Part shown: positions 16,485 through 62,756 of the stretch, one piece after another | Layout: each line of letters opens with the position of its first letter | Numbering within the stretch: the first letter of the stretch is position 1 | Source: a virus | DNA: 64,000 nt | Reading direction: 5' to 3' (one strand) | IMG/VR virus record: IMGVR_UViG_3300021197_001769 | Made by a program: the position numbers and the translations under genes | Notes under the pieces: generated by a model | What the model was told of the DNA's origin: nothing | The model's input: only the letters and a program-made list of their open reading frames with translations | The model's database searches: none

Positions 16485-16683
16485 AACCCTCTCCGTTTAC
16501 AATATAAAAACCTTCACCATTATCTATCTGCTTTTGCCATTCATCTTCTGACATTATCTCTCTAAAATATGTCCAAGCTAGATCAATTGATTCATAAAAG
16601 TATATTTGAATATTAGATTGTTGTACACCTTTATCTGTTTCTGTACTTGTAGTTCTTCTTACAAATAGTTTTTCTTCACCCAT
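16429..16683 (-). CDS. Hypothetical protein
   Basis: 84-aa ORF in operon. Confidence 0.45.
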   Translation of the reverse strand: MGEEKLFVRRTTSTETDKGVQQSNIQIYFYESIDLAWTYFREIMSEDEWQKQIDNGEGFYIVNGEGYVNFIFLETRKVSVPATT

Positions 16684-38313: not shown

Positions 38314-38315
38314 CT

Positions 38316-46048: not shown

Positions 46049-46393
46049 TTAATTAGCTACTATAAAGCCTCTTAATTCAATTATTGCATTAGGGCTAGTA
46101 CCTACTACAGTAAGAGATCCACCTCCTGCTGATCCAGTAAAAGGTAAACCTCCAAATTGAGATAGTAACCAGTTACCAGTTTCGAATACTTTACCGTCTA
46201 ATGTAACATCATTAGGTCCCATATTAATAACTGTCTCGATTCTATTAGGTTGGAATCTTTTAGTTTCACCAGTTTCTAATGTAAACAATAATGCATCTGA
46301 ATCGAATGCTGAAGCAGAATCAATATGCAATGTTACCCTTGCAGAGTTTTGATCTCTTGCTGTAATTCTTTTTGCTATTATAGTGTTAGCCAT
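46049..46393 (-). CDS. Hypothetical virion-associated protein
   Basis: 114 aa, beta-rich, in head module; carries one DSD. Confidence 0.6.
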   Translation of the reverse strand: MANTIIAKRITARDQNSARVTLHIDSASAFDSDALLFTLETGETKRFQPNRIETVINMGPNDVTLDGKVFETGNWLLSQFGGLPFTGSAGGGSLTVVGTSPNAIIELRGFIVAN

Positions 46394-46402
46394 TTATATC
46401 TC

Positions 46403-47143
46403 CTAGTTTGATAAAGAAGCTAGTGATCTTGTACGACCTTTAATTCTTTTCTTTGTTATTTTAGCAATACGAGCTGCTTTCTTTTTCTTAGCAGCACCCA
46501 TAGCCTTTTTAGCTCTTTTAAGTTTAATTCCTAATCTTTTCATTTTAGCTTTTTGAGTACCGGTTTGAGGTAAGCATCTTCTACCTGCTAATCTCATACC
46601 TGGCATACACTTTTTCTTCTTAGTAATTGTGCCTTTAGATCTTTTAAAGATTACTCTAGCCATTTTTTCGTCAATTACAACTGTACCGTCTTCTTGCATT
46701 ACCTCTACATCATGAACTTCATAATCTTCTGCAAATAAAGCATCTTTAATTTTAAGATAATTTTCTATAGCATCATCATAGTAAGTTCTATCTTCGATAG
46801 CAAATTCTAAATCATACTCTTCCCCATCTTCCATAGGAACGAAGTCTAAATAAGTTTTAGGACATTGACACTCATCATCTGCTTCATGAGGATGACAACC
46901 ACAGTCATCATCATCTTCTTCATGTAAGTTAAGAGCAGCTTCTGCTTCGTCAAAGTCGTCAATGTCACCTTCTACTATTTCTTCATAGTCTAAGATAACA
47001 ACTTCTTCTTTAAACTCTTCAATTTGCTCAGGTGTAAAAATAGTCTCTTCTATTTCTACTCCTTGTCTTATCGAATCTAAGACGAGTTGTTTTTTCTCTT
47101 CGTAGATTCTACTCTTTAGGTTCTTCAGATTCATTTTTACCAT
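46403..47143 (-). CDS. Prohead core protein (gp68-like): acidic N-terminal part, basic C-terminal part
   Basis: Position between gp67-like gene and gp21; C-terminal K/R-rich ARVIFKR...CMPG. Confidence 0.6.
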   Translation of the reverse strand: MVKMNLKNLKSRIYEEKKQLVLDSIRQGVEIEETIFTPEQIEEFKEEVVILDYEEIVEGDIDDFDEAEAALNLHEEDDDDCGCHPHEADDECQCPKTYLDFVPMEDGEEYDLEFAIEDRTYYDDAIENYLKIKDALFAEDYEVHDVEVMQEDGTVVIDEKMARVIFKRSKGTITKKKKCMPGMRLAGRRCLPQTGTQKAKMKRLGIKLKRAKKAMGAAKKKKAARIAKITKKRIKGRTRSLASLSN

Positions 47144-47282
47144 CTTCTATAAATTTAGAGGCCAACTCCTGCTTCATTTGCTGGAGATGTCCAATTACTT
47201 TAGTATCTATATGGGATTTTACATCTTTAACAAATGTATCTTGATCTCCCATATTCGTTGTAAAATCAAATTTATTTTCCAT
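47109..47282 (-). CDS. Small prohead core protein (gp67-like)
   Basis: FVKDVKSHIDTKVIGHLQQMKQELASKF; position in head module. Confidence 0.5.
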   Translation of the reverse strand: MENKFDFTTNMGDQDTFVKDVKSHIDTKVIGHLQQMKQELASKFIEDGKNESEEPKE

Positions 47283-47290
47283 AATATTTA

Positions 47291-48289
47291 TTAACCCCAC
47301 ATTATAGAGTCTAGCTCTAATTGGTTATTGTTTTTAAGTTCATCTCTAAGAGATGTCTCTTCTTCGCGTCCTTCGTTATACAACGTTTGGCCATCTAATT
47401 GAACACCACCTGGTAGTTCAGTATTTTGATATTTCTTAAGATTAGCACCCCATTGCATTTTAGCTAAAGCAACAGCGTATGTTTTTAACCAACTGTCTTG
47501 ATATACTTGTCCGTATATTTCTGGGTCAGTTACTACATAACATTCAGCTAACATATAATGAGTCTTCTTACCACCATTAGCAGCAGTCTTCAATCTATTC
47601 ATATCTGTATCGAAATACAATCTATTTTTATGTTTATTAAATCTTATGGCAGGAGATGTATTCAATAAGAACTCTATATGTTCTACAAAAGTCTTTTGAA
47701 TATAATAAGAAGTTAATCCTCCTGCTCCCATACCACCATAAAAGAAATCAAAATTATTTAAAAAGTATTGGTACTCGTAATTATACATTCCCGCTTGACT
47801 AAAAGAGTCTACTTTAGCTATTCTAGTAACCGAAATTATATCATTAGGTACTTTAACTCCTATTTGACCAGCACTAGTAAGAATTATATTTTGATCTTCT
47901 AGTACTTGCTCTTCTAAAGTGAAGTATCTTCTAAATCCATCATGCGCAGAATCTGAATCAGTCTTTATATAAACTCTTTGACCTGTAACGTTATTCAGTT
48001 TTTTCATTACTCTAGAACCTAATCTATAGGTACTATATTTGTCAGAGTCAAAATCTTCTGCTCCTAAGTCTTGGTGTCTTCTATTATTTCTTTTAATAAA
48101 GTTACTATCAATCTTTATAACTCTATAAGTTCTTTCAGCGCCATCGTAATGGTACTCTTGATACAGCTGAACAGCATCATCAATACAATCTTCTAATTGT
48201 ACATCAGCAATCTCTACGTTAATGACAGGTGCACCCAGTCTACGTAAAATATAATCTGCTAGTTCTTGTTTACTGTTCGGTAACGGCAT
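47291..48289 (-). CDS. gp13: Neck protein (relocated downstream of portal)
   Basis: SKQELADYILRRLGAPVINVEI, EYHYDGAE, WLKTYAVALAKMQWGANLKKY, LPGGVQLDG. Confidence 0.93.
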   Translation of the reverse strand: MPLPNSKQELADYILRRLGAPVINVEIADVQLEDCIDDAVQLYQEYHYDGAERTYRVIKIDSNFIKRNNRRHQDLGAEDFDSDKYSTYRLGSRVMKKLNNVTGQRVYIKTDSDSAHDGFRRYFTLEEQVLEDQNIILTSAGQIGVKVPNDIISVTRIAKVDSFSQAGMYNYEYQYFLNNFDFFYGGMGAGGLTSYYIQKTFVEHIEFLLNTSPAIRFNKHKNRLYFDTDMNRLKTAANGGKKTHYMLAECYVVTDPEIYGQVYQDSWLKTYAVALAKMQWGANLKKYQNTELPGGVQLDGQTLYNEGREEETSLRDELKNNNQLELDSIMWG

Positions 48290-49889: not shown

Positions 49890-49935
49890 TCTGCTTCCTC
49901 ATAATATACTAGTCTAATAATACTGTTATAGTCGA

Positions 49936-50496: not shown

Positions 50497-50497
50497 G

Positions 50498-52696
50498 TTA
50501 CGCTCCTGCTACTTCTTCAAAACTAACGCCGGTTCTAACTGCGACGAAGTTAAGAGTTATAAAGTTAATTGAACGATTAGGTTTGATATAGATGTCAGCT
50601 ACGAATCTATTACCATCAATAACCGCCGGTGTATTATTTGAAGTATCACAAACTACTTTAAAGTCTTGGCATCCTCTTCTTGCTTTTATATCTTGTAAGA
50701 AAGGCTCTACTGCTGCTACAAAATTAGCTCTTGTAAAGTCGTCGTTGAATTCAAAGAGTTGAAACTTGGCTGCAGTTGCAATTGCTTTTTCTAATACAAT
50801 GAATAATCTTCTTACATTAATACGATCAAAAGCTGAAGGTTTACTTAGTGCAGTTTTATCACCAAATAGTAATGTACCTTGACCTCTTTGAGTAACCATA
50901 GGGTTGACTCTTTCTCTATACAGAACATCTCTGTCTGCTTGTTGAGGATTGAAAGATAATTTAACTACATTGGATACAAAACCTCTATTGAAACCTGCTG
51001 GTGACCACCAAGCATCATTAGTGAATTCTGACCTTGCGGTGATACCTGCTGTATCACCTGCCATCGCTGACCAGAAAAATTGATCATTATATCTGTCATA
51101 CATTCTCTTCCAAGCAGAATCGAACATTGCATACGATGTAGAGTTAAAGTCAGAAAAATAAGTAGTAACTTTAGCTGCAGTTGGATTAACTACTGCTGCA
51201 TCATAAGATGGTGAGCAAAATACTACACAATCTTTTCTTACATTTGCAATATTATCTATTGCATACTTTTGTACTACTTTTTGTTTTGTCGCGTTTGAAG
51301 AACCGCTACCGAAACTATTACCTAAAATTAATGAGATATCAATTTCTTCCGGATCTTTAAACTTATCAAGACCTGCTGTATAATCACCTGCATCAACATC
51401 ATCTCCAGAAGAACCACCATTAAGTGTGTATCTTCTTACACCTGTTAGAGACATGTTAGTAACAAATCTTACGAAGTCTTTTTCATTTGCTTTGTAAATA
51501 TCAATACCTATTGCAGTTACTTGTTCAGAATTTGATACTGCTGCGGTAGAATTACCGTTAGCTAGATCTTCTGTAAGTACGTAAATCCACTGTGATGTAT
51601 TATTAATTATATTTTTATAATAATTTTGACCACCATCAGCTGTTTTACCGTTACCTGCTTTAGATAAACCTTCAAATGTTTCAAGTACTTCATATGCAGA
51701 TCCTGTGATAGTAGTATCAGAGGTGTATACAATAACATGTACTTCATCTTGAACATCTGAGTCAAAGTTGTCTACAGACCATTGTGACCTACCTGGTCTC
51801 TTTTCAAACAATGTAGCTGCTTTAATTGCAGCTGAACCAGAGCCAACAATAGGTGTATTGTTAAAGTCTGAATCGTTCATGCCAGCATCAATAAGAGCTA
51901 CTCCTATACCGTTACCTCTATGACCAGGGAACCTAGCATAGACTGAACCATTGATAAGAGTACTTTCTTCAGCATTAAAGTCATCTAAATTATTAAGAAC
52001 TGCTGCTGTAGCAAAACCAGAACCTTGTTCAGCTTCTTGATAAGGAGTAAACGTTAGTCCTACTGTAGTTACAGCTGAAGGAGCAGTTGCAGCGGCTGGT
52101 GTTGTAAAAGTAATTGCTGTATCACCTGCCAATGCTGCGGCACCGTCGGAGTCTATCGCGGCGTCTGTGGCATTAGCTTCAGTATTGATAGCATTCTTTA
52201 AGATGTTTGCAACGTCACCAATGGATGAAATATCGTCGGAATCAGTAACTGTAAATTGAAATGCAGATGCGCTTGTAACTGCTCCAATGGTTACTGTCTG
52301 AGTTTTATGTCCCTCACCATCTGAATCGGGAAAAGTAAAAGCTGGGGTACCAGTAATACTAATTGTTGTCTTTCCTGACTCTAATGTAACGAACTCTGAT
52401 GCAGCGTTTCTAGCGCCATCAGTTAAAATTCTTACTATTTGAATTGCATTTGCGTATGATAAAAAGTTCGCAGCTGTGTACCAATCGCTTCTAGTACTTT
52501 CACCTGCTACTGTTGATACTTTTGGGTTACCAAACTTTGCTATTAACTGTTCTTCACTTGAAATAAGTGTAGGTTCTAGACAAGGTCCCCATTCAAAATT
52601 TCCAGCAAATGCACCTGTTGTAGTTGCTACAGCAGGTATAATATTGGTAAGGTCTTTTTCTTTTACCTGTACACCTGGACTAACTTGGAAGGCCAT
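50498..52696 (-). CDS. gp18: Tail sheath protein
   Basis: SPGVQVKEKDLT, WWSPAGFNRG, GDKT, FDRINVRRLF, FEFND, KPNRSINFITLNF. Confidence 0.98.
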   Translation of the reverse strand: MAFQVSPGVQVKEKDLTNIIPAVATTTGAFAGNFEWGPCLEPTLISSEEQLIAKFGNPKVSTVAGESTRSDWYTAANFLSYANAIQIVRILTDGARNAASEFVTLESGKTTISITGTPAFTFPDSDGEGHKTQTVTIGAVTSASAFQFTVTDSDDISSIGDVANILKNAINTEANATDAAIDSDGAAALAGDTAITFTTPAAATAPSAVTTVGLTFTPYQEAEQGSGFATAAVLNNLDDFNAEESTLINGSVYARFPGHRGNGIGVALIDAGMNDSDFNNTPIVGSGSAAIKAATLFEKRPGRSQWSVDNFDSDVQDEVHVIVYTSDTTITGSAYEVLETFEGLSKAGNGKTADGGQNYYKNIINNTSQWIYVLTEDLANGNSTAAVSNSEQVTAIGIDIYKANEKDFVRFVTNMSLTGVRRYTLNGGSSGDDVDAGDYTAGLDKFKDPEEIDISLILGNSFGSGSSNATKQKVVQKYAIDNIANVRKDCVVFCSPSYDAAVVNPTAAKVTTYFSDFNSTSYAMFDSAWKRMYDRYNDQFFWSAMAGDTAGITARSEFTNDAWWSPAGFNRGFVSNVVKLSFNPQQADRDVLYRERVNPMVTQRGQGTLLFGDKTALSKPSAFDRINVRRLFIVLEKAIATAAKFQLFEFNDDFTRANFVAAVEPFLQDIKARRGCQDFKVVCDTSNNTPAVIDGNRFVADIYIKPNRSINFITLNFVAVRTGVSFEEVAGA

Positions 52697-52728
52697 TTTT
52701 TGACTCCTTTATTTGTAAATTTACAATA

Positions 52729-52736
52729 TATTTATA
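52729..52736 (-). promoter_or_regulatory. Late promoter TATAAATA upstream of gp18
   Basis: Exact T4 late consensus; further copies at 41725, 58806 and 60703. Confidence 0.8.
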
Positions 52737-52746
52737 ATCTATAGAT

Positions 52747-54609
52747 CTACGAACCTGTCGGTAACGTATTAGTAAATCGAGGATTATCCCCGCCATGACT
52801 ATTTATTGTAAACGTTAATTTATATTCAGCTAAGCTGAACTTATCTTTGAATGCATATTCAATAACATTCGAATCTCTATACAATAATGTATTAAAGAAA
52901 CCTTTAGCTACAGGATGTGATTCTAGGTTGTAAGCTAGCACCCTTAATATATTTGCATCTGATGAACCTTTAGCAAATATCATAGTATTAGAAGACACTG
53001 TAGATCCGTCTCCGGATACAACTCTCCAAGTAACACTCATTTGAGCTTCTAATATCTGATCACTATCAGTTGAGAACGTAACTGTCGCTAAGTTTTCAGA
53101 ATCAGTTGGTACAGGAGTTGCAGGTGTTGAGCTTGAAGTAACTCCTATTAAAGTATTCAATTTAGCTATATCACCTTGCATAGTACCTATTAATGTACCC
53201 AATGCTTGAATAGCTATTTCATCTGAATCTCTATCAGATCTTAATAAATTTATTTTATTGGTAAGTACATTTATATCTGAATCGCTAGCGCCGCCTGATG
53301 AACCTACTTTACTAGTAAAATGTACAAAATCTGAATCCATATCTGATTTTATTCTACCAGCTAAAGACTGAATATATGTCATTCTAGTAGTTTCACTATC
53401 AATGTCAGCTCTTAATCCATCTACTTCATTTCTCAATGTAGCAGCTACTGCAAGATCAGAGTCACCAATACCTACAATACTTCTTATCTTATCTTGAAAT
53501 AAATTATGATCACTATCTAATCTAGCTCTTACTTGAGACTGCAATAAACTTAACTTAGTACCTTCAGAGTCTAATCTTAATCTCATTTGAGATTGAAGTA
53601 CTGATACTTTAGCTGCCTCTGAATCTAATCTTAATCTTATGTCAGATACTCTACTATCTAAAGCAGCTCTATCTGAATCTATTCTAGTATGAATTATATC
53701 TTGAGCAGTTTTTAATGCTTGTACTACTAATGAATCTGAATCTAGTCTACTGGTTAAATTAGTTTTTAACAACTGTACTTTAGTTGACTCAGAATCTAAT
53801 CTTACGTGAGCAGCATCAGCTCTTGCTTGTGCAGCTGCAGTCGAAGTACTTAGTGCTTGTAATGCTGCATCGTCTGAATCTAATCTTGATTTTACTTGAG
53901 TAGCTAACGCTTGTATAAAACTTGAATCTGAATCTAATCTAGCAGTAATAGTATTGACATTATTAGATAGATCAGCTACAACTTTTAAGTCAGAGTCGGA
54001 AGGTATTTCTAATACTCTTAAACCGTTCTCTCTTATTATTTCTATAACTTGATCACTATCAAATCCGGCAGAACCTACACCTAGTATACCAATATATTGA
54101 CCACCACTAATGTATATGCTTTTGTCTGTAAAGTCTTTACCATTAGGTAAGTTTTCACCCATAAAGTGTAACACACCAGACTGATAATCAAAAAACCATT
54201 CATCGTCATTACCAGAACCAGCAGCAAATAGCTGATTAGATATTCCAGCTGCATTATCACTGTCACCTGAATCGTGTAGATATACTTTTACTTGATATGT
54301 TGAACCAAATTCAGGTGGTATCCAATCTGTGACACCAGTAATCCAAGTTCTATTAGCACTCGCTGTACCATCTGCTACAGCTTCAACTAAATTGCTTGAA
54401 CTATATACTTCTACAACTCCTGTAGTACTTGCAGGTAAAGTAGCTGGTATAAGATTAGCTTGTACTAGAGTTTTATCACCTCTGTTTAATAATGGAGATG
54501 CAATAGATTCGTTAGTTGGACCTTTTAATGAATCAGAGTCAGTTCTAGCAACACCGAAACCTAATTTCTTAAAAAGAAAGTCTACCTTTGCTGTTAAACT
54601 AATTGCCAT
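52747..54609 (-). CDS. Fibre-like virion protein with RLDSD/E coiled-coil repeats
   Basis: N-terminal KVDFLFKKLGFG...WFFDYQSGVL domain, central helical repeats, 19 DS[DE]. Confidence 0.75.
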   Translation of the reverse strand: MAISLTAKVDFLFKKLGFGVARTDSDSLKGPTNESIASPLLNRGDKTLVQANLIPATLPASTTGVVEVYSSSNLVEAVADGTASANRTWITGVTDWIPPEFGSTYQVKVYLHDSGDSDNAAGISNQLFAAGSGNDDEWFFDYQSGVLHFMGENLPNGKDFTDKSIYISGGQYIGILGVGSAGFDSDQVIEIIRENGLRVLEIPSDSDLKVVADLSNNVNTITARLDSDSSFIQALATQVKSRLDSDDAALQALSTSTAAAQARADAAHVRLDSESTKVQLLKTNLTSRLDSDSLVVQALKTAQDIIHTRIDSDRAALDSRVSDIRLRLDSEAAKVSVLQSQMRLRLDSEGTKLSLLQSQVRARLDSDHNLFQDKIRSIVGIGDSDLAVAATLRNEVDGLRADIDSETTRMTYIQSLAGRIKSDMDSDFVHFTSKVGSSGGASDSDINVLTNKINLLRSDRDSDEIAIQALGTLIGTMQGDIAKLNTLIGVTSSSTPATPVPTDSENLATVTFSTDSDQILEAQMSVTWRVVSGDGSTVSSNTMIFAKGSSDANILRVLAYNLESHPVAKGFFNTLLYRDSNVIEYAFKDKFSLAEYKLTFTINSHGGDNPRFTNTLPTGS

Positions 54610-57600
54610 TAACTTATACTCAAACTAGTTACTGAATCACCTGATGCTAATCCTATTCTTAAAAGAATATTATTATTAGTAGCATTGGTTGCGTTTTCTG
54701 TACCGAGCGTGAAAGTAAAAGAGCCATTCAGCGCTCCTGTACCTACAATATCACCTCCAGTAGATGCACATCCATTAGAACCGTTTCCTCCTGATCCTGT
54801 GTTAGCGCCTGGTACACCAGCACCTGCATATTGACCTCCACAATCTAACCATCCATTTAATGAGGATGATGAATCAATTACTGTGCCTGGTGCTGCTATA
54901 AACATACCTTCTATACCAGAAGACGAAACAATATTAACTGTAAAGTTAGCCATTGCTGTTCTTCTAAACGCCATTGTAAAATATTGAGTTCCTGTATCAC
55001 CTGATCTGTTTGGTCCAGGAGGAACATATGTACTGTAGTTAGTAGTATCGTGTTTTAATACCCCTAATCTAATTGTAGCTTCTTTAGTGCCTTGAACTCC
55101 ACTATCTGAATCTTCTACGAATATATCTGTATTGTAATAATTATATGAACCACCTCTCAACGCAGGGGTATCAGTAGTAGCTGATTTTAAAGCTCCTGAT
55201 CTAACTCCGTTGTCGGTAAAACCTGAACCTAATCCACCAGCTACACTTATAGCAGTTTCGTTTATTCCAGATTGAGAAGCTGTATGCACGTTTATATTAG
55301 TTGTATTTTCTACATAAGAACTAGTACCGTTAGTATTACTTGCTCTCACTTTAATTCTATCTACTGTTCTAACTGATGAAGATGTAATAGCAACACTTAA
55401 GGTAGCTAATGTATAAGCAGAACTAACACCTGTATTAGCAATAGGTATGCCTCCGGATAACATTGTTGATGAACCATCTACATTAGCGTAAGTATAATTT
55501 GTATTAACTGTACCAGCAGAACTAGTACTTTCTTGATTAGTTCCAGAATCTATTTCAACAGGAGAGGATGTATCATTATAAGCTTGTCCTACAAAATTTG
55601 ATATTTGAATACCTGCAACGTTTATTGTAGGGCTTCCAGAATTAAAATAAGGCACTCCTGAAATGTATCTATAGGTTCCTGAATTATTAACTGATACAGT
55701 ACCTGTACTTGATACTGTCGGAGCCGCTGAAACTGTATCGTCTCTTAATATGTGAACAGTAGATGTTGAACCTGTCTGCGAATGTTTTATTAATTGTGCA
55801 TTAAGTCCTAAAGTATAACCTGATAAAGATCTAGCTATTTTAGCATCAAATGTCTGATAAAAATTGGATGGATATGTAGAAGAACTAATAGTATCATGAG
55901 CATCAGCTTGTTGAGTAACTTGAAGTGAACCAGCAGCTCCAGTTTCTCCTGATGTTGTAGTAAATGATATAGTACCGTCACTATCACCATTTCTTATACA
56001 TGTTACTTCACCTGCAGCTCCATTATAAGCATTATTAATTGTATTAGTATCTATAATTCCAGTAGTATATCTTCTTGCAGTTGTACTATTAAGAGATGTT
56101 CCTGCTGCTAATGTAGACATAGTACCTGTATTATCAGTGAAACCTGAAGCTAATTTAGGATTAGTACCGTGAGCTGAATCTGATAAAGTTAAAGTAAAAG
56201 TAGATAAGTTACTAGGAGCAGCTGGTACTGCGTTAATTGTAAATGTGACACTTTCTTTATCTGATTGAGCTACACTTCCAGGTGAACCAGAAGCAAATAA
56301 TTGAGAAGCATAACTACCAGTTGACTCTCCAGTATAGTCATGATCAATAGTAGCTCCTAATGAACCTGGAGATGATCCATCTTCAGTTAATGAATCTGAA
56401 TCTCCATCGGCCCAACTATAAGTTAAATTAGTTGCATTTTGTGATGTGTTAGTAGCTCTTACTAATGCTCTATTTGCACCGTTTAAGTCTACAAAGTCAT
56501 ATATGTCTCTACTATTATCTCCTGATCTATCAGAAACAGTTACTGCAGTTGCAGCATAGTTGACTCTTAAATCAGGTCTAACTGTAATTTCAAAAGGATC
56601 TGATTCGAAAGGAGATGAATCATGATTAGAAGTTATTTGTAATTTACCAGTAAAAGTAACTGTATGTCCATTAGCTTGATCTGAATCAGGTAATGCATAA
56701 GTATGAGAAACTGCACTAGCTCCTCTATCACCTGATGAACCTGTTCCTGCATTTACTGTTGTATTAGATGTACCGTCACCCCATACATAAACATATCTAC
56801 TACCAAATGTTGCAAAGTTACCAACACCTGAACCTGAATTGTTAGTTGCTTGTATAACATGACCTGATGTAGCTTCTTCATTTACACCATCACTATCATT
56901 TATACTTACAGATGGTGTATGTGTATCTAAAACATTAAAGAAATTATCTGAGTCAGCTGCAGGTATATCAGTTGGGTTAGCTGTAGTGTGTGAATTTAAT
57001 GTGAGAGAAATATTAAATCTTCTATCTTCTTCAACTACTGTATCAAATGTATAAGGTAATCTACTACCGCCGTTATTAATAGAACCACCAGGTAATCTAT
57101 CAGAATCTATAGCATGCATTAAATCGCTATCACCAAAATTAAAAACATAACCTGCGATTGCATTTGAAGTATTAGTAGTATTATTTTGTAAATAAATTGT
57201 ATCGCCATCATCCCATTGTGTAATAGGAGAACCACCAGACGATGCAGCATATATTGCGAATGAAACAGCTGGTGTAGCTGTAAAAACTGTTACGTAGTTA
57301 CTTCTTTCTTTAACTGAAAATGAACCAGCACCTTCTCCAGAAGAGTTTCTAGCTATTACTCTTACAGTAAAAGGAGAACCTACGTTTGAATTGTATGTAT
57401 GAGATGGTGTACTATCAGAACTGTCTGAATCTATGTTACCGTCACCCCAATGAATATCATATCTATTAGGGTTACCATCTGCACTTGTTGTTAATGTAGT
57501 AGTGAAACCAGCACCACCGATTAAGTTGTCACCAGTAAAATCTAAATTAGAAACAGCAGTATTTCTAATTACGTTTCTAGTAGCTTCATTTAATTTATCG

Positions 57601-58112
57601 ATAGCGTCAGTAACTGTTTCAGTTGTTTCTAATGCTATAGCACCAGTTTCACTTGATAAGGAACCATCTTGTAAGGGAGCACCGAGTGTGATTTGATTGC
57701 CTACTGTATTTTGTCCAGCATGCTCTTGAATCATATTAACGATTGCATCTGAGTCGTGACCAGCATTAGCGGCTAAGTTACTAATAGCAGCAGTATCTGA
57801 GTCTAACCTTGCAGTTAAATCAGTCTTAATTGCTTGTAATCTACTCTCATCAGAGTCTAGTCGAGATACTGCAGTTTCAGCTCTTCTTAAAAGAGTCTGG
57901 ACGCGTGTTGTCTCTGAGTCAAGATCTGATCTAAGAGCTGCAACGGCTGTGCCAGCATGCTCAAAGACCATATTCTTAACAACATCTGAGTCAGTAGTAG
58001 AGGATATAGTGTAAACACCTTCACCTTCGGAGTTTACAACAAACCCTACACCTACATTAGTACCTGCCTCTAGTCTAGTAACGAGAGGGATATCATCTGA
58101 ATCGTACGCCAT
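54609..58112 (-). CDS. 1167-aa S/T/G-rich virion protein with PKD-like domains
   Basis: WGDG..SHTY / FGD / WADG motifs, YISGVPYF; 15 DS[DE]. Confidence 0.75.
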   Translation of the reverse strand: MAYDSDDIPLVTRLEAGTNVGVGFVVNSEGEGVYTISSTTDSDVVKNMVFEHAGTAVAALRSDLDSETTRVQTLLRRAETAVSRLDSDESRLQAIKTDLTARLDSDTAAISNLAANAGHDSDAIVNMIQEHAGQNTVGNQITLGAPLQDGSLSSETGAIALETTETVTDAIDKLNEATRNVIRNTAVSNLDFTGDNLIGGAGFTTTLTTSADGNPNRYDIHWGDGNIDSDSSDSTPSHTYNSNVGSPFTVRVIARNSSGEGAGSFSVKERSNYVTVFTATPAVSFAIYAASSGGSPITQWDDGDTIYLQNNTTNTSNAIAGYVFNFGDSDLMHAIDSDRLPGGSINNGGSRLPYTFDTVVEEDRRFNISLTLNSHTTANPTDIPAADSDNFFNVLDTHTPSVSINDSDGVNEEATSGHVIQATNNSGSGVGNFATFGSRYVYVWGDGTSNTTVNAGTGSSGDRGASAVSHTYALPDSDQANGHTVTFTGKLQITSNHDSSPFESDPFEITVRPDLRVNYAATAVTVSDRSGDNSRDIYDFVDLNGANRALVRATNTSQNATNLTYSWADGDSDSLTEDGSSPGSLGATIDHDYTGESTGSYASQLFASGSPGSVAQSDKESVTFTINAVPAAPSNLSTFTLTLSDSAHGTNPKLASGFTDNTGTMSTLAAGTSLNSTTARRYTTGIIDTNTINNAYNGAAGEVTCIRNGDSDGTISFTTTSGETGAAGSLQVTQQADAHDTISSSTYPSNFYQTFDAKIARSLSGYTLGLNAQLIKHSQTGSTSTVHILRDDTVSAAPTVSSTGTVSVNNSGTYRYISGVPYFNSGSPTINVAGIQISNFVGQAYNDTSSPVEIDSGTNQESTSSAGTVNTNYTYANVDGSSTMLSGGIPIANTGVSSAYTLATLSVAITSSSVRTVDRIKVRASNTNGTSSYVENTTNINVHTASQSGINETAISVAGGLGSGFTDNGVRSGALKSATTDTPALRGGSYNYYNTDIFVEDSDSGVQGTKEATIRLGVLKHDTTNYSTYVPPGPNRSGDTGTQYFTMAFRRTAMANFTVNIVSSSGIEGMFIAAPGTVIDSSSSLNGWLDCGGQYAGAGVPGANTGSGGNGSNGCASTGGDIVGTGALNGSFTFTLGTENATNATNNNILLRIGLASGDSVTSLSIS

Positions 58113-58138
58113 TCACCCTCACCTTTTATTCCCAGTTA

Positions 58139-58729
58139 CTAGTTGCCTGAGTTATCGTCTGTATCTAGTACATATCCTCCGAATACAACACTATTAGAAG
58201 TATTTCTAATTTCTAATTTGTGTGCGTCTGTAAAAGCATTACCATCAAAGTTAAATGCTTGACCTGCTGTAATAGTAATACCACCTGGGAATGTGTATCC
58301 ACTATTCAATGCTGTCTTAACAGCTGAAACTGCTACTGTATCAGAGTCTAATCTAGCTATGATTTCTGTTATTTTTGGATTCAATTGAGCCATAATGAAA
58401 TCAGAGTCAGCTACTTGATTAAGTTTTGATATAATCAAACCGTGCTCTGAGTCTCTATCTGCTCTTAAGTTATTAACAGCTGCTGATAAGTTACTTAACT
58501 TAACTGTATCAGAATCTAATCTAGCAATAAGTCCTGGATTAGTACCTGTGTCAATAATAACAGCCCATTTAGTAGCATCTGATCCAGGGGTTACACCTGA
58601 GAAGCCACCTGATACTGCTGAGTATGCAATACCTTCGTGATGTACTGTATCTAATTTTTGGTATGTTGTACCGGCGTTATAAGCGCCTTTAAAAACGAGT
58701 CTTACTCGTCCTAATATCTGAGTTGCCAT
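58139..58729 (-). CDS. Short fibre protein with carbohydrate-binding-like N-terminus
   Basis: LGRVRLVFKGAYNAGTTY..D.V...G..Y...TPGSDATKW, then RLDSD helices. Confidence 0.7.
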   Translation of the reverse strand: MATQILGRVRLVFKGAYNAGTTYQKLDTVHHEGIAYSAVSGGFSGVTPGSDATKWAVIIDTGTNPGLIARLDSDTVKLSNLSAAVNNLRADRDSEHGLIISKLNQVADSDFIMAQLNPKITEIIARLDSDTVAVSAVKTALNSGYTFPGGITITAGQAFNFDGNAFTDAHKLEIRNTSNSVVFGGYVLDTDDNSGN

Positions 58730-58823
58730 TTTCCTTTACCCCTTTTGTTCTGGTTGGAAGCCCTGCCACTTTCGTGGTTCTAGCTCAGTAGCATTAATGC
58801 TGTTTTATTTATAATTATGCACT

Positions 58824-59081
58824 CTAGTCGTCATCAGCTAAATGTGCAGCATAAGCAGTTTTAATTTCATCTGTCCAAACACCGTTTGCTATATTTTGCA
58901 CTTCTGTGCTTTCATTAGATAAGCCATCTGCACTTATGTTTGGTGAAACTATGTGTCTTGAAAAAACTCGACTTATTTCTGTACCATCTCTTTTAATGAC
59001 TGTTGCAGTTCTAACTTGTATAAATTTATACGGCCCTACCACTTCAATTTTATCTTGTATTGTTTCTTCTGTTAATGCCAC
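58824..59081 (-). CDS. Tail-fibre-associated (assembly chaperone-like) protein
   Basis: MALTEETIQDKIEVVG..IQVRTATVIKRDG.EISR..SRH; directly follows a fibre gene. Confidence 0.7.
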   Translation of the reverse strand: MALTEETIQDKIEVVGPYKFIQVRTATVIKRDGTEISRVFSRHIVSPNISADGLSNESTEVQNIANGVWTDEIKTAYAAHLADDD

Positions 59082-59099
59082 TTTCTACTCCTATAATTA

Positions 59100-60638
59100 T
59101 TAGAACGTCATGTATGTTATACCTATGGTAAACCTATCATTGGTTGCCATATGAGAGTTGTTAAGAGTTCCTGCCGATGTATTATTCTCAGATGACCTAA
59201 ATGATCCAACAGATGCATCAGTTGAAACATAAAAATTAACAAAATTACCAGAATTATGATCCGGACCTTGTGCACCAACTCCATCAAAAGCAACTGAACC
59301 AACAGACCTATCACTTAAATCTGCGCCATTACCTGTTGCAAATGGTAAACTTATATCTATAACTCCGTTTGGACTACTTTCACCAGTTATATGTAATTGA
59401 CCTTGCAAGTGAACCATTCTACCAATTTTTACATATGACAATTTTGTAGCACTATCTCCAAGAGTATAGCTACCACTTGTCCTACCTGTGACTGTAGGGG
59501 TATATATACCTTCTTCATAATCATCAAGCAGTTCACCGGTCATACCAGTAGCATCACTTGTGGCACTAAAATCTATACCATGACCATTTGCTACTATAAC
59601 GTTGCCATCAGTTAGAGTTAATCCATTGCCTACAGTTACTGTACCATCAACTTCTAATCCTGTACCATTAATTAATTGAAGTGTGTCGCTATTAAATCTT
59701 GCACTAATATTATTTGAGCCAGCTTTCTTATGAGTTATTTCAATAATACCATCTTCAGTTCCGTCACTAGCGTCTTGTATTTTTCCTGTAATTTTTGCAT
59801 ATACTATTTCTTGGTTAGCATCATTTTCACCTTTGAACTTTATTTGACCTAAGTAATCTGCGTCGGCTACACTAGAACTATTACGTTTAAGTGTAATCAC
59901 TGGACCTGCATTATTAGAATCTTCAGTTGTAGTAACTAATATACTATCATCTGTAGTTGTGTTATTAACAGTTAAAGTTTGGAATGTGTGATCTGAATCT
60001 ATACCACCTAAACCAGCTATGTTAGCTGTATTAGTATTTGTAGCTGCTTTTAATGATTGTATTATTATACTATCACTGTCTAGATCTGCTCTCGTCTTAG
60101 TTGCTAATGATTGAATAGCTGCGCTGTCTGAATCTAGCCTGTTTGTAATTTCACTTATTTTTGATATCTTTATCGAATCTGAATCTCTATCAGCTCTAAG
60201 AGATAATATAGCACCACCAACTGAGTCTAATGTATCGTTACCAGTTAAGAATAATATCTGTCCATCAGAGTCAATAGTCAAAGTACCTGAATTTGCTACA
60301 TCATCATTTGTGTTTAATAATATTTGACCATCACTGTCGACTACTAAAGTACCTATTTGTCTATCAGCATCATCAGAATCTAATCTGTTTATTAAACCGT
60401 CTACTTTGTTTTGTAAATTTGCGACTTTAGTTAAGTCACTATCTTCTATTTCGGCAACAGATGCGAAGGCAAGTGAACCAGAGACAACCTTTAAAATTTG
60501 ATTGTCAGAACCAATAGTTGAGGGAATACTAACGTTACCTACAGTAAGTCCTTTAACGGTTGTACCGCCTGAAGTAACGAAAAGGTCAGAGTCTCCTACA
60601 CGAAGACCGTTTTTTATCATAAAATTTTTTTGTGCCAT
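59100..60638 (-). CDS. Tail fibre protein
   Basis: NFMIKNGL N-terminus; C-terminal GIDFSAT...LLDDYEEG.YTP...YVKIGRMV...LPF tip module. Confidence 0.75.
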   Translation of the reverse strand: MAQKNFMIKNGLRVGDSDLFVTSGGTTVKGLTVGNVSIPSTIGSDNQILKVVSGSLAFASVAEIEDSDLTKVANLQNKVDGLINRLDSDDADRQIGTLVVDSDGQILLNTNDDVANSGTLTIDSDGQILFLTGNDTLDSVGGAILSLRADRDSDSIKISKISEITNRLDSDSAAIQSLATKTRADLDSDSIIIQSLKAATNTNTANIAGLGGIDSDHTFQTLTVNNTTTDDSILVTTTEDSNNAGPVITLKRNSSSVADADYLGQIKFKGENDANQEIVYAKITGKIQDASDGTEDGIIEITHKKAGSNNISARFNSDTLQLINGTGLEVDGTVTVGNGLTLTDGNVIVANGHGIDFSATSDATGMTGELLDDYEEGIYTPTVTGRTSGSYTLGDSATKLSYVKIGRMVHLQGQLHITGESSPNGVIDISLPFATGNGADLSDRSVGSVAFDGVGAQGPDHNSGNFVNFYVSTDASVGSFRSSENNTSAGTLNNSHMATNDRFTIGITYMTF

Positions 60639-60669
60639 CTCGGTTCACTATCCCCAGAGTCATATTATA

Positions 60670-60691
60670 GAGGAGAGATTTCTCTCTCCTC
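60670..60691 (-). promoter_or_regulatory. 9-bp GAAA-tetraloop hairpin in fibre gene leader
   Basis: GAGGAGAGA-GAAA-TCTCTCCTC downstream of late promoter 60703-60710. Confidence 0.65.
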
Positions 60692-60705
60692 GTATATTAT
60701 TATAT

Positions 60706-62298
60706 TTATAACGTTATTTGCTCTATGATTTTATAAGTAGTAGATTGAGCAGACGCAGAAGTGATTCTTAGTCTTACATTTCCACCATTTATATCAGCAC
60801 TTATAGCAGTAACCGGAATTGATCCAGTGTATACTATACCGTACTCAACAAAAGCGACGTTAGTACCATCATGAGTAAGAAGTACTTCTGATACTTGATT
60901 CTCACCTGATACTGTGTTAGCAGCAGTTACTAGTACTTTCATTCCTTTAAAGGAGTTTGAAGCACGTGTAGTAACTGTTGTTGCATCAGTACTAGTAGTA
61001 GTTATTGTAGCTGGAGCCACAACCGCTATACCACCAGTATTAGCTGCATTAACACCTAACGTAATATCATTATTAAATTTAGATTTCAGAGAATCTTCTG
61101 AATCTTGATCGCCTCTTAACGCATCAACTACTCTCTGTAATGCAGATATCTTTACAGTATCTGAGTCGAGTCTAGCTAAGGCATCATTTACTCTTGTATT
61201 AACAAGTTGTACTTGCGTCTGGTCAGAGTCTAATCTGGCCTTTTGTAAGTTACTTGATAACACCAAAGAAGAGATAACAGCTTGATCAGAATCTAATCTT
61301 GAGATAAATTCTTTTCTAAGAGCTGCGATTCTAGGATCTTCAGAGTCTAATCTTGCAATAATATCACTTTGCTTACCTTGCAATAATTGTAACTTAGTCG
61401 AATCAGAATCACGATCTGTTCTTAATGTAGTAATAGCGTTACCAACAGAGTCAATTGTATCTGATCCTGTTAATACCATCAATTCACCTTCTGAGTCAAC
61501 AGCAAAGACACCGTTCTCAGTAAAGTGTAATCTACTATTAATAAAGTCAGAGTCAATCATATTTGAGATTGAGTCAGAATCTATTATCTTCGCTCTTGTA
61601 TTCAAATCATCTAAAGCAATTTGAATAGCTTGTATTTTAGTACTATCAGAGTCTAAGTCTGCTCTTAATGCTGCTGTGTCAGCTGACGTACCAGCACCTA
61701 AAGCTTGAATCCTTGCGCTATCTGAATCAAGTCTTTGTCTTGTTTGCGAAGCAAACGTTTGAAAGGCTGAATGATCAGAATCTAATCTAGGATAAACTTG
61801 TGATCTAATAGTCTGTTGAACAATAGAATCAGAATCTAATCTGCCGATAAGAGCAGCAACTTTTTGGTCTAATTGAAATGTTAACAGGTCTGAGTCAGCA
61901 AGGTTTAATAAACCAGCTGCTATTTTAGCTTGAAATAAGTCATGATCAGAATCCATTCTTGTATGGATAACATCTACTTGACCTCGAATAGTCTGAACTC
62001 TAGTTGAGTCAGAGTCTACTCTCGCAGCTAATTGGTCTTGCTTAGTCTTTAAAGCTTGTATAACGGTACTATCAGATTCATTATCTGCTATAATCTGGTT
62101 AACGTTACTTGCTGTAAGATATCCTGCGTTATTAGTTAAAAGCGAATTATTATCACCAGCTTTGATAACAGCGTTATCGCCAATGGTAATTGTACTTCCG
62201 GTTTTTAACTTTAAACTAGTATCTCCTACAAGACTAAAATGCAGGTCGGAATCACCGACCAATAATCCTTGACGGATTCTAAAGTCTCTATTTGCCAT
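60706..62298 (-). CDS. Fibre-like virion protein with RLDSD coiled-coil repeats
   Basis: DFRIRQGL N-terminus; 17 DS[DE]; C-terminal SEVLLTHDG..VEYG domain. Confidence 0.75.
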   Translation of the reverse strand: MANRDFRIRQGLLVGDSDLHFSLVGDTSLKLKTGSTITIGDNAVIKAGDNNSLLTNNAGYLTASNVNQIIADNESDSTVIQALKTKQDQLAARVDSDSTRVQTIRGQVDVIHTRMDSDHDLFQAKIAAGLLNLADSDLLTFQLDQKVAALIGRLDSDSIVQQTIRSQVYPRLDSDHSAFQTFASQTRQRLDSDSARIQALGAGTSADTAALRADLDSDSTKIQAIQIALDDLNTRAKIIDSDSISNMIDSDFINSRLHFTENGVFAVDSEGELMVLTGSDTIDSVGNAITTLRTDRDSDSTKLQLLQGKQSDIIARLDSEDPRIAALRKEFISRLDSDQAVISSLVLSSNLQKARLDSDQTQVQLVNTRVNDALARLDSDTVKISALQRVVDALRGDQDSEDSLKSKFNNDITLGVNAANTGGIAVVAPATITTTSTDATTVTTRASNSFKGMKVLVTAANTVSGENQVSEVLLTHDGTNVAFVEYGIVYTGSIPVTAISADINGGNVRLRITSASAQSTTYKIIEQITL

Positions 62299-62333
62299 TT
62301 TCCTCTCCCTCTTGAAGTTCTAGGCGGACAAAA

Positions 62334-62756
62334 TTAATTACGTATTAGTGTAAGATTAATCTTGAACTCGGTTTGGTTAGCACTAGTGGTTTGTGATCTA
62401 AGTTCACATAAACTTCCATTTATTACAGAACTAAAATCTACAAAGCGACTACTACTTGAAAATAATGTAGCATACTCTGTAATATCAACTGAATCACTAT
62501 CGCAAAATAACAAGACTTCAGTCACCATCTTGTCATCAGTGATTTTATCCGTGGCTTGTATCACGAACTTAGCGGAACCATAGCTTAACTTACTAAACTC
62601 TGCTATCTTTCTAACGGATGAAGTAGCCGTTGCCGTAGCTCCGGAAGCGTAAGTAAAGACAGCGATGTCACTGTCTTGGAAATCTATTTTATCTACAAGC
62701 ATGTTTTCAATAGTTAAAACACGGTTATTTAGATTGTACTTTAGCTGGCGCGCCAT
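62334..62756 (-). CDS. Small virion protein homologous to the C-terminal domain of 60706-62298
   Basis: YGSAKFVIQ...TEVLLFCD...TEYA; late promoter 62786-62794. Confidence 0.65.
   Translation of the reverse strand: MARQLKYNLNNRVLTIENMLVDKIDFQDSDIAVFTYASGATATATSSVRKIAEFSKLSYGSAKFVIQATDKITDDKMVTEVLLFCDSDSVDITEYATLFSSSSRFVDFSSVINGSLCELRSQTTSANQTEFKINLTLIRN

What the first reader, a model, noticed from the sequence alone, without database searches (positions are those of the whole stretch)
46049..62756. An Asp-Ser-Asp/Glu tag on tail, neck and fibre proteins: candidate sequon for phage-encoded virion modification
Seen (manual counts of DS[DE]): 60706-62298, 17; 52747-54609, 19; 54609-58112, 15; 59100-60638, 9; gp18, 5; 58139-58729, 4; 62334-62756, 2; gp13, 2; gp20 tail, 1; 46049-46393, 1. 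The motif occurs in unrelated folds (coiled coils, PKD-like beta domains, sheath, neck) and with varied codons, so tandem duplication of one repeat does not explain it. I found none in gp43, gp44, gp46, gp47, UvsW, gp17, gp19 or gp23, and only single copies in two non-structural proteins (FkbM, SNase). Established: staphylococcal SD-repeat proteins are O-glycosylated on Ser by SdgA/SdgB; Bacteroidetes O-glycosylate D-(S/T)-x sequons; some mycobacteriophages glycosylate their virions with their own glycosyltransferases. Inference: DSD is a recognition sequon selected across exposed tail proteins for Ser O-glycosylation by the glycosylation cluster at 13976-28596, giving a glycan-coated tail. 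Alternatives are Asp beta-hydroxylation, phosphorylation, or Ca/Fe binding.
Basis: partly seen in the sequence, partly recalled or inferred. Interest (0 to 1): 0.92.

Follow-up and report, generated by a model that had tools for sequence, protein, structure and literature searches.

The report
Asp-Ser-Asp tag on phage tails
The tail, neck and fibre proteins of this uncultured marine T4-like phage and its near relatives carry the tripeptide Asp-Ser-Asp/Glu about sixteen times more often than chance; it is most likely a serine tag read by a modifying enzyme, but no modification has been shown and a built-in metal-binding or structural role is nearly as likely.

Summary
All ten hand counts reproduce exactly. 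In nine virion proteins DS[DE] occurs 74 times against 4.6 expected (DSD 64 vs 3.4). DTD, NSD, DSN and ESD sit at background.

41 of 75 copies lie in one 18/21-residue coiled-coil repeat shared by five paralogous fibre genes. There the second acid occupies a core heptad position. The other 34 copies (3.2 expected) lie in sheath outer domains, PKD-like loops, the neck and N-termini.

The trait defines a clade. Every relative with a sheath at least 55% identical has it. Relatives at 51% or less, and the Pelagibacter phages HTVC008M and Mosig, do not. Sites are conserved far above background, but they also turn over.

The link to the sugar cluster is weaker than proposed. A syntenic core of GT-like genes (16659-17354, 23805-28596) accompanies the tag in four sublineages, but Mosig has the same core and no tag.

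Best reading: a serine-modification sequon, probably O-glycosylation (0.42). Main rival: an intrinsic cation-binding or structural motif (0.30). This scan found the same tag earlier on other DNA. I found no paper describing it.

The parts
60706..62298 (-). Fibre protein, 530 aa, 17 DS[DE]: 14 in 18/21-residue coiled-coil repeats and 3 outside them. Its C-terminal beta domain is widespread among phage fibres.
59100..60638 (-). Fibre protein, 512 aa, 9 DS[DE] (5 coil, 4 non-coil). Paralog of 60706-62298.
58139..58729 (-). Small fibre-like protein, 196 aa, 4 DS[DE], all in the coil. Modelled as a parallel in-register trimer, with the third motif residue (74, 95, 130) at the interface.
54609..58112 (-). 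1167-aa fibre or decoration protein, 15 DS[DE]: 4 in an N-terminal coil and 11 in beta-rich PKD-like regions, often just after a GDG/ADG loop.
52747..54609 (-). 620-aa fibre protein, 19 DS[DE] (14 coil, 5 non-coil). The N-terminal domain resembles tail proteins of phiCbK-like Caulobacter and Brevundimonas phages.
62334..62756 (-). 140-aa protein related to the fibre C-terminal domain, 2 DS[DE].
50498..52696 (-). Tail sheath gp18, 5 DSD at residues 124-314. All lie in the segment corresponding to T4 gp18 residues 95-337, the outward-facing domains I and II.
47291..48289 (-). gp13-like neck protein (head-tail adaptor Ad2), 2 DSD. Orthologs in relatives carry 3-6, and one 937-aa form carries at least 24.
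46049..46393 (-). 114-aa protein next to the prohead protease gene, 1 DSD. Orthologs carry 1-2.
23805..28596 (-). Six genes of the conserved cluster core. Four are paralogs of one unannotated family (24469, 26032, 26960, 27742) that always sits in phage sugar clusters. The others are 23805 (phrog_28018; its Mosig homolog is annotated as a glycosyltransferase) and 25248.
16659..17354 (-). GT-like protein (phrog_1962 'glycosyltransferase', E 1.5e-31) belonging to the conserved core: 63-86% identical in tagged relatives, at most 38% in untagged ones.
13976..23792 (-). Variable part of the sugar cluster: GT8, pyruvyl transferase, methyltransferases, a phrog_14945 GT, epimerase/dehydratase, cupin, FkbM, a KdsA-like Kdo-8-P synthase, cytidylyltransferase/MPI and GT25. 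Other sublineages carry different sugar-nucleotide genes here.
37543..38346 (-). AspH-like cupin (PF05118, 36 bits against a cut-off of 22.6). It is a candidate for the Asp-hydroxylation alternative, but the family also occurs in untagged relatives.

Best explanation
DS[DE] is a selected linear tag carried by the tail-side virion proteins (sheath outer domains, neck, fibres and, in relatives, the baseplate) of one clade of uncultured marine T4-like phages. I read it as an acceptor site whose invariant serine is modified in the host cytoplasm, before or during assembly, by an enzyme that recognises the acidic flanks. The most likely modification is O-glycosylation by phage-encoded GT-like proteins. 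The conserved core of the window's sugar cluster (16659-17354, 23805-28596) is the best candidate for the enzyme. Shown: the enrichment, its strictness, its restriction to tail-side proteins, its clade specificity and its site conservation. Inferred: that the serine is modified, what the modification is, and which enzyme makes it.
For: (1) The tripeptide is strict: DSD 64 vs 3.4 and DSE 10 vs 1.2, with DTD, NSD, DSN and ESD at background. (2) The same tripeptide occurs in different structural settings. These are b-c-d positions of continuous coiled-coil helices, a helix start and a pre-strand loop in the sheath, loops after GDG in PKD-like regions, and the links between alternating-hydrophobic, beta-strand-like stretches in a relative's neck protein. 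One structural role is therefore unlikely. (3) In the coil, Ser and the first Asp fall at heptad positions b and c. For three of the four sites in the trimer model they are not among the residues touching with confidence. Yet they are as invariant as the core-facing third residue; DSD columns make up nearly all invariant columns among fibres only 24-35% identical. (4) Sheath sites all lie in the region equivalent to the exposed T4 gp18 domains I and II. Tube, capsid, scaffold and protease have none. (5) The trait is clade-specific. All 21 sheath-anchored loci with at least 55% identity are enriched and all 59 with 51% or less are not. Whole contigs give 184/25, 189/31, 100/11 and 75/12.5 against 13/13.5, 12/16 and 20/27. 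(6) Sites are conserved far above background: 15 of 19 in a fibre at 47% identity, where other Asp and Ser residues are 41% and 30% conserved. Four sheath sites persist even where the insert domain is deleted. Sites are also gained and lost. (7) Non-tail proteins of tagged phages are mildly depleted (11 vs 22). (8) A syntenic GT-like core with an exchangeable sugar-nucleotide cassette is present in four tagged sublineages. (9) SdgB O-GlcNAcylates the minimal peptide DSD (PMC8561734).
Against: No modification has been observed. Pelagibacter phage Mosig has the whole cluster core in the same order and also a similar oxygenase/radical-SAM island, yet it has no tag. The tagged sublineages appear to form one clade, so the co-occurrence is a single event. 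The cluster follows recombination genes without a late-promoter motif, and such clusters are usually read as acting on the host surface. No GT4/SdgB-type domain is present. 55% of copies lie in a coiled coil where the third residue faces the trimer axis, so an enzyme that needs all three residues must act before folding. The capsid, the largest exposed surface, has no tag.
Confidence: 0.42

Rival explanations
1. The motif is intrinsic and unmodified: a cation-binding or structural element. In the fibres, L(a)-D(b)-S(c)-D(d) together with R at g forms an RxD inter-chain salt bridge and a ring of three carboxylates on the trimer axis that holds Ca2+ or Mg2+ (or Fe). In beta-rich domains DSD forms acidic turns that bind cations. 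These would stabilise exposed parts in sea water or bridge the tail to acidic host polysaccharide.
For: Hydrophobic residues at -5, -1, +6, +9 and +13 put the second acid at a core d position. R occupies -2 in 23 of 41 units, and S or T occupies +3 in 18 of 41, as in N(d)T(e) layers. The trimer model (score 0.64, best control 0.00) puts residues 74, 95 and 130 at the interface. Precedents exist: the NxxQD motif of the P22 tail needle coordinates a central ion octahedrally (it was crystallised with Ca2+), and RxD inter-chain motifs are known (PMC13580157; PMC6555100). In a relative's neck protein DSD sits between strand-like stretches. No enzyme specific to tagged phages was found.
Against: Core ion binding does not explain why Ser and the first Asp, at heptad positions b and c, are invariant. 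Known Ca2+ DxD sites tolerate many middle residues; here only Ser is enriched. E is accepted at the third position but not the first. One tripeptide serving both a helix core and hairpin turns is not expected from physics alone. Homologous proteins of sister clades manage without it.
Confidence: 0.3
2. It is a sequon for a different modification: Ser phosphorylation (a RIO1-like kinase lies in the island beyond the window), Asp beta-hydroxylation by AspH-like cupins, or chemistry by the radical SAM/SPASM enzymes.
For: AspH-like genes lie at 37543-38346 and in the island. The island also holds a RIO1-like gene, TauD, a GNAT-like gene, a desaturase and at least five radical SAM genes beside gp16/gp17. 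Tagged relatives also carry AspH-like genes there.
Against: The radical SAM, kinase-like and QueC-like genes have no homologs in the island of the tagged G002/G007 sublineage; G007 has only distant radical-SAM homologs elsewhere in the genome. A very similar island (three AspH genes, TauD, desaturase, acetyltransferase, MoaA-type radical SAM) exists in untagged Mosig, and HTVC008M has many 2OG oxygenases. Hydroxylation of Asp does not explain the invariant Ser.
Confidence: 0.13
3. The tag is a docking site read by a protein partner, such as a tail-decoration protein, an assembly chaperone or a host surface component, and is not modified.
For: It is restricted to tail, neck, fibre and baseplate proteins and is absent from the capsid. 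It shows both conservation and turnover.
Against: No candidate reader was identified. A three-residue docking site is unusually short. In the coil only two of the three residues would be accessible.
Confidence: 0.08
4. It is a by-product of repeat duplication, Asp/Ser-rich composition, or a DNA-level signal such as GANTC sites.
For: 41 of 75 copies belong to one repeat family. GAYTC within the codons raises the GANTC count in 48-64 kb.
Against: Shuffles that keep composition never come near the observed counts. Non-repeat copies are 10x enriched. Codons vary and 17% use AGY, which has no GANTC. DSD is the most conserved part of the repeat. Sites are conserved across 47-60% identical orthologs.
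Confidence: 0.02

Closest known systems
SdgB/SdgA O-GlcNAcylation of staphylococcal serine-aspartate repeat adhesins (PMC3794999, PMC8561734)
   Same: The acceptor chemistry matches. SdgB modifies Ser in the minimal peptide Asp-Ser-Asp. The targets are surface fibre-like proteins, many sites are modified per protein, and only Ser is used.
   Different: Here the tripeptides are isolated and spread through folded domains of about ten proteins, not arranged as long SDSDSD tracts. No GT-B GT4 (PF00534) enzyme was found in the window or in tagged relatives. The system is in a phage, not a Gram-positive cell wall.
Mycobacteriophage virion glycosylation (Freeman et al. 2023, seen only as a reference in PMC12801897; the paper itself is not held)
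   Same: Phage-encoded glycosyltransferases are proposed to decorate the phage's own structural proteins.
   Different: As I recall that work, capsid and tail-tube subunits are the targets; here capsid and tube carry no tag. No short sequon is known there. Here nothing has been shown by experiment.
Polar-core and ion-binding motifs of trimeric coiled coils: N@d layers, NxxQD of the P22 tail needle gp26, and RxD inter-chain salt bridges (PMC13580157; PMC6555100 citing Alvarez 2010 and Hartmann 2009)
   Same: A polar residue sits at heptad position d, followed by S or T at e. R at g and D two residues later match RxD. The setting is a phage fibre. A central ion is a plausible ligand.
   Different: The core residue is Asp rather than Asn or Gln; I know of no described D@d motif. 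The two exposed residues are equally invariant. The same tripeptide also occurs outside coiled coils.
Cytoplasmic multi-site glycosylation of bacterial adhesins (AIDA-I/TibA heptosyltransferases; HMW1C) - from my own knowledge, not checked here
   Same: A cytoplasmic enzyme modifies many sites of a repetitive fibre-like surface protein before it folds. The heptosyltransferases are Ser-specific.
   Different: No GT9 or HMW1C-type domain was detected in the window. The sequons differ.
GxHxH 'His boxes' of the T4 gp37 fibre tip, later shown to hold iron on the trimer axis - from my own knowledge, not checked here
   Same: A short invariant motif recurs along a phage fibre, and its explanation turned out to be metal binding.
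   Different: That motif lies in a beta-structured needle of one protein. The tag here spans many proteins and fold types.

Membership tests
SdgB/SdgA-type SD-repeat glycosylation | Acceptor contains Asp-Ser-Asp with Ser as the modified residue | tested here: met
   DSD 64 vs 3.4 expected; Thr is not accepted. Minimal DSD is an SdgB substrate (PMC8561734). The modification itself is not shown here.
SdgB/SdgA-type SD-repeat glycosylation | GT-B fold GT4 enzyme (Glycos_transf_1, PF00534) | tested here: not met
   No PF00534 hit in the window's cluster proteins or in tagged contigs G007 (85% complete), G002, G003 and G008-G010.
SdgB/SdgA-type SD-repeat glycosylation | Long tandem Ser-Asp dipeptide tracts | tested here: not met
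   Copies are isolated tripeptides spaced 18 or 21 residues apart or irregularly.
Phage virion glycosylation (mycobacteriophage type) | Phage-encoded glycosyltransferases | tested here: met
   GT8, GT25, phrog_1962 and phrog_14945 glycosyltransferase matches.
Phage virion glycosylation (mycobacteriophage type) | Glycans demonstrated on virion proteins | not testable with these tools
   No isolate and no proteomic data.
Phage virion glycosylation (mycobacteriophage type) | Transferase genes co-vary with the tagged proteins | tested here: inconclusive
   The core is present in four tagged sublineages and absent from five untagged genomes, but it is also present in untagged Mosig. The tagged group appears to be one clade.
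Bacteroidetes general O-glycosylation sequon D-(S/T)-(A/I/L/V/M/T) | Third residue carries a methyl group; Thr is accepted | tested here: not met
   The third residue is D or E. DSA, DSL, DSI and DSV are at most about 2.4x their expectation (7/3.5, 4/3.0, 6/2.5, 4/2.7), against 19x for DSD. DTD is 2 vs 3.1.
Trimeric coiled coil with polar core layer / RxD motif | Heptad or 18-residue periodicity with the polar residue at a core position | tested here: met
   Hydrophobic fraction 0.88, 0.76, 0.88, 0.73 and 0.68 at -5, -1, +6, +9 and +13. The second acid is at d. Helices run continuously through the motif in AF2, at low pLDDT.
Trimeric coiled coil with polar core layer / RxD motif | Parallel homotrimer | tested here: met
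   Model only: three copies of the 196-aa protein score 0.64 against a best control of 0.00. That mark was reached by 21 of 30 proteins solved as pairs of one chain and by 0 of 23 solved as single chains (calibrated on two copies, so only roughly valid for three). Runs agree in at least 74% of contacts; partner pLDDT at least 73. Coiled coils are common among solved structures, so the pass may reflect likeness.
Trimeric coiled coil with polar core layer / RxD motif | Ion coordinated by the core layer | not testable with these tools
   Needs a structure or metal-binding assays.
alpha/beta coiled coil (beta-layer) | Nonad or hexad insertion: repeat lengths of 9+7k residues with a hydrophobic residue three positions before the beta-strand | tested here: not met
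   Spacings are 18 and 21 residues. The hydrophobic residue lies directly before the motif, unlike the motifs in PMC4786415.

The most novel reading that the evidence does not exclude
This would be a virion-wide minimal sequon system in marine T4-like phages. One Ser-specific enzyme would read Asp-Ser-Asp/Glu on about ten to sixteen tail-side proteins (75 sites in this window, 184-189 per relative contig, hence thousands per particle). It would attach a glycan whose sugar varies between sublineages, because the nucleotide-sugar cassette inside a conserved transferase core is exchanged. The result would be a tail coat of changeable serotype on fixed attachment points.
Probability: 0.25. Interest if true: 0.9.

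Novelty: new variant of a known kind. Interest (0 to 1): 0.7.

Why it matters
If the serine is modified, this would be the first short, genome-readable sequon for virion modification in T4-like phages. It would occur in an abundant, uncultured marine clade whose closest cultured relatives infect SAR11. Tail surfaces could then be predicted from sequence. It would also suggest a function for some of the sugar genes, and possibly oxygenase genes, that marine myophages carry. These genes have been read only as host-directed auxiliary genes. If instead the motif binds cations, it would be a new acidic core-layer and turn motif for building fibres in sea water. That would bear on how marine phage tails bind Ca, Mg or Fe. 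Either way the tag is a simple sequence marker that separates a phage clade (24 of 150 fibre homologs; 21 of 80 sheath loci). It also picks out which parts of each protein are under this selection.

Tried and rejected
**DNA-level and structural explanations**
- GANTC or another DNA-level signal was rejected. Codons vary, 17% are AGY, and conservation is at the protein level.
- Composition and repeat duplication alone were rejected by shuffles and by the 34 non-coil copies.
- A helix N-cap or turn as the single role was rejected. AF2 runs helices through most coil copies (low confidence), and the heptad register is unbroken.
- A beta-layer (alpha/beta coiled coil) was rejected because the spacing and the hydrophobic position do not fit.

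**Candidate enzymes**
- An SdgB-like GT4 was not found.
- The small GT-A-like family (A3, with a VIDIDI DxD motif) looked specific at first. It was 54% identical between tagged sublineages with no blastp hit in G005 or G006. It proved widespread: about 73 of 80 IMG/VR loci carrying it have DS[DE] at background. L116, which looked like a counter-example, simply ends before the structural genes.
- The radical SAM/SPASM island as the tag's enzyme set is not shared by the island of tagged G002/G007, and a similar island occurs in untagged Mosig.
- My interim conclusion that tagged G002/G003 lack the sugar cluster was wrong. Both contigs end exactly at the cluster boundary, and the more complete G007 has the core.

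**Naming the four-paralog family (A4/A5)**
- No Pfam, PDB-sequence or direct PF05159 match.
- There is only a language-model lead to 'capsule polysaccharide biosynthesis protein'.

**Other checks**
- No other untagged genome shows a comparable multi-protein tripeptide.
- Megablast and tblastn of the fibres against cultured phages found nothing, apart from one N-terminal domain.
- TATAAATA-type late promoters precede structural genes but not cluster genes.

Full report
**What the window is.** All genes lie on the minus strand of a DNA with about 33% GC. It is a T4-like myophage. The portal, sheath, gp13-like neck protein, terminase, UvsY and a gp19-like tail-tube domain are recognised by Pfam or PHROGs. 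The major capsid, prohead protease, gp46/gp47-like and UvsW-like genes are recognised by similarity to annotated HTVC008M genes. The nearest cultured phage is Pelagibacter phage HTVC008M, with a sheath 46% identical. The window is 100% identical to part of a 179,298-bp ENA metagenome scaffold.

Shuffles that keep each protein's composition expect 0.04-1.1 copies. Six proteins reach p<=0.0005.

- Pooled over nine virion proteins, DSD occurs 64 times against 3.4 expected (z=33) and DSE 10 against 1.2.
- DTD (2 vs 3.1), NSD, DSN and ESD are at background, and no other middle residue in DxD/E is enriched.
- The motif is therefore strictly Asp-Ser-(Asp>Glu).
- Ser codons in the motif broadly follow the genome's usage (TCN 83%, AGY 17%). 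The excess of GANTC in 48-64 kb is a consequence of the motif, not its cause.
- Two small corrections: gp46-like 31410-33122 and ORF 11985-12380 each have one copy.

**Half of the copies are one repeat.** 41 of the 75 copies lie 18 or 21 residues apart inside a repeat of the form x-[R/D]-[L/I]-D-S-[D/E]-x-x-x-[I/V/L]-Q-x-L. Five genes between gp17 and gp18 share this repeat and are paralogs.

- Hydrophobic residues at -5, -1, +6, +9 and +13 relative to the first Asp give an unbroken a/d register. The first Asp is at b, Ser at c and the second acid at the core position d. Arg is at g in 23 of 41 units, and Ser or Thr at e in 18.
- AF2 runs continuous helices through most of these sites, at low confidence (mean pLDDT 57).
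- Three copies of the 196-aa protein model as a parallel in-register trimer. The score is 0.64 against a best control of 0.00. That mark was reached by 21 of 30 proteins solved as pairs of one chain and by 0 of 23 solved as single chains, calibrated on two copies. The runs agree in at least 74% of contacts and the partner pLDDT is at least 73.
- In that model residues 74, 95 and 130, the third motif position, are at the interface. The first two positions are not among the residues that touch with confidence. Coiled coils are common among solved structures, so this pass may reflect likeness.
- The geometry recalls known coiled-coil grammar: RxD inter-chain salt bridges, polar N(d)T(e) layers, and the ion-binding NxxQD motif of the P22 tail needle (PMC6555100; PMC13580157).
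- A beta-layer does not fit (PMC4786415).

**The other half is not a repeat.** 34 copies lie outside the coils against 3.2 expected (sd 1.75; maximum 10 in 2000 shuffles).

- They sit in the sheath, the neck protein, the loops after GDG/ADG in the PKD-like parts of the 1167-aa protein, N-terminal 'G-DSD-L' segments and elsewhere.
- The five sheath sites (residues 124-314) all fall in the stretch that replaces T4 gp18 residues 95-337. From established knowledge of T4 gp18, those residues form the protruding domains I and II.
- In the AF2 sheath model, one site starts a helix and one lies in a loop before a strand. Three lie in a low-confidence insert.
- Tube, capsid, scaffold and protease have none.

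**The trait marks a clade.**

- Among 80 IMG/VR loci anchored on the sheath, all 21 with at least 55% identity are enriched. Their ratios are 2.6-11, with the sheath carrying 5-7 copies and the neck 3-6. The 59 loci with 51% or less sit near a ratio of 1 on small counts.
- Whole contigs give 184 vs 25 (G002), 189 vs 31 (G007), 100 vs 11 (G004) and 75 vs 12.5 (G003). The untagged contigs give 13 vs 13.5, 12 vs 16 and 20 vs 27 (G005, G006, G011).
- HTVC008M's 42-kb structural region has no ORF with two copies. Mosig has 12 vs 19.5 over 111 kb.
- Among the 150 best library matches to the 530-aa fibre, 24 are DSD-rich, with up to 50 copies in 1431 aa. The other 126 hold 44 copies against 44.4 expected.
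- No cultured phage in the collection has the repeat.

**Sites are under selection.**

- In the sheath, four sites are conserved across 55% identity with variable flanks. They persist even where the insert domain is deleted. Outgroups have NAS or GGS at these positions, and some lineages add sites.
- In the 620-aa fibre, 15 of 19 sites are conserved at 47% identity, where other Asp and Ser residues are 41% and 30% conserved.
- In the 1167-aa protein only 6 of 15 sites are shared at 61% identity, which shows turnover.
- Among fibres 24-35% identical, nearly all invariant columns belong to DSD.
- Non-tail proteins of tagged phages hold 11 copies against 22 expected. This is a mild depletion not seen in untagged genomes.

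**Looking for an enzyme.** Window 13976-28596 is a sugar cluster. It holds GT8, GT25, two further PHROG glycosyltransferases, a pyruvyl transferase, a KdsA-like synthase, an epimerase, cupins, methyltransferases and a cytidylyltransferase/MPI.

- Its core is 27742, 26960, 26032, 25248, 23805 and 16659. Of these, 27742, 26960 and 26032, together with 24469 (kept in only some sublineages), are four paralogs of one unannotated family.
- The core is syntenic in four tagged sublineages. The sugar-nucleotide genes between the core genes differ; in G007 they are GDP-mannose dehydratase and a DegT aminotransferase. I confirmed the tag in two of those sublineages on the same contigs: G023 (fibres 17 and 17, neck 6) and a 204-kb contig (neck at least 24 vs 1.3).
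- The core is absent from G005, G006, G011, G012 (complete) and HTVC008M.
- The cultured, untagged Mosig has the whole core in the same order at 24-38% identity. There it is annotated partly as glycosyltransferases.
- The four-paralog family has no Pfam or PDB-sequence match. It has a language-model lead to capsule-synthesis proteins and sits in sugar clusters wherever I found it.
- The cluster shows no late-promoter motif.

**The island beyond the window.** I read 17 kb of it. It holds at least five radical SAM genes (two with SPASM domains), RIO1-like, QueC-like, SufT, TauD, AspH-like, GNAT-like and desaturase genes, and four small GT-A-like genes.

- Tagged G002/G007 have a different island without radical SAM genes.
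- Untagged Mosig has a very similar island.
- The small GT-A-like family is widespread in untagged phages.
- No gene set that I could test is specific to the tag.

**Weighing the readings.** The strict tripeptide occurs in helices, loops and hairpin-like links. Ser is invariant at a surface position of the coil. The tag is restricted to exposed tail-side parts and to one clade. Sites both persist and turn over. All of this fits a linear motif read by one reader, and SdgB shows that DSD can be a complete O-glycosylation acceptor (PMC8561734).

Against this, nothing shows modification. The candidate enzymes also occur in an untagged relative. More than half of the copies also have a plausible structural role, with the third residue buried.

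I put a serine-modification sequon, most likely glycosylation, at 0.42. An intrinsic cation-binding or structural motif is at 0.30, another modification at 0.13, a protein-docking tag at 0.08 and an artefact at 0.02.

**Novelty.** Paper searches for the motif with phage or glycosylation returned only the staphylococcal work. This scan noted the same tag earlier on this genome and on other DNA. I file it as a new variant of a known kind, namely sequon-directed decoration of surface proteins and phage virion glycosylation, pending any experiment.

Noticed in passing
L196:1-17400 (same genome, just beyond the window's end at 64000): An enzyme island lies beside gp16/gp17, arranged as two convergent operons. 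It holds at least five radical SAM genes (two with SPASM domains), QueC-like, RIO1-like, SufT/DUF59, TauD, two AspH-like, GNAT-like and fatty-acid-desaturase genes, and four small GT-A-like paralogs. Cultured Pelagibacter phage Mosig has a similar island (L234:800-19500).
   Followed up: partly
L110:1789-2358 and paralogs; window 16659-17354: A family of small (190-260 aa) GT-A-like proteins with a VIDIDI DxD motif has 3-5 paralogs per phage. More than 1000 homologs exist in marine viral metagenomes, and nearly all are unannotated.
   Followed up: partly
G002 (L092 end) and G003 (L093 start): Two independent 109-kb and 51-kb contigs of tagged phages both end exactly at the boundary of the sugar cluster. 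This suggests assemblies break at a hypervariable sugar cassette.
   Followed up: no
L087:15079-15891 and L087:16561-17688 (G002): A phage contig encodes a CsgG-like curli secretion channel (187 bits) and a FecR-like protein. Nearby are a T4-type DNA alpha-glucosyltransferase-like gene and a thymidylate-synthase-like gene, which may indicate DNA hypermodification.
   Followed up: no
window 52747-54609, residues 1-161: The N-terminal domain of the 620-aa fibre matches tail proteins of giant phiCbK-like Caulobacter and Brevundimonas siphophages (36-39% identity). That is another link to alphaproteobacterial phages.
   Followed up: no
window 52747-62756: Seven genes, six of them fibre-like, sit between gp17 and gp18 in this sublineage. 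In the G002/G007 sublineage gp17 is followed directly by gp18, and the DSD-rich fibres lie elsewhere.
   Followed up: partly
window 13396-13998: A full-length ClpP protease gene (233 bits) lies directly beside the sugar cluster.
   Followed up: no
L233:18001-20720: A relative's gp13-like neck protein is expanded to 937 aa. It carries at least 24 DS[DE], spaced about 10 residues apart between stretches of alternating hydrophobic residues, which looks like a beta-meander with DSD at the links.
   Followed up: partly
window, motif codons: The first Asp of the motif uses GAC in 40% of cases against 22% genome-wide, and AGY Ser codons are under-used (17% vs 31%). I have no explanation.
   Followed up: no
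L090:13932-14363 and L091:1187-2257 (G002 island): A cytochrome c-like gene and an AurF-like di-iron oxygenase gene lie in the structural-module island of a phage.
   Followed up: no
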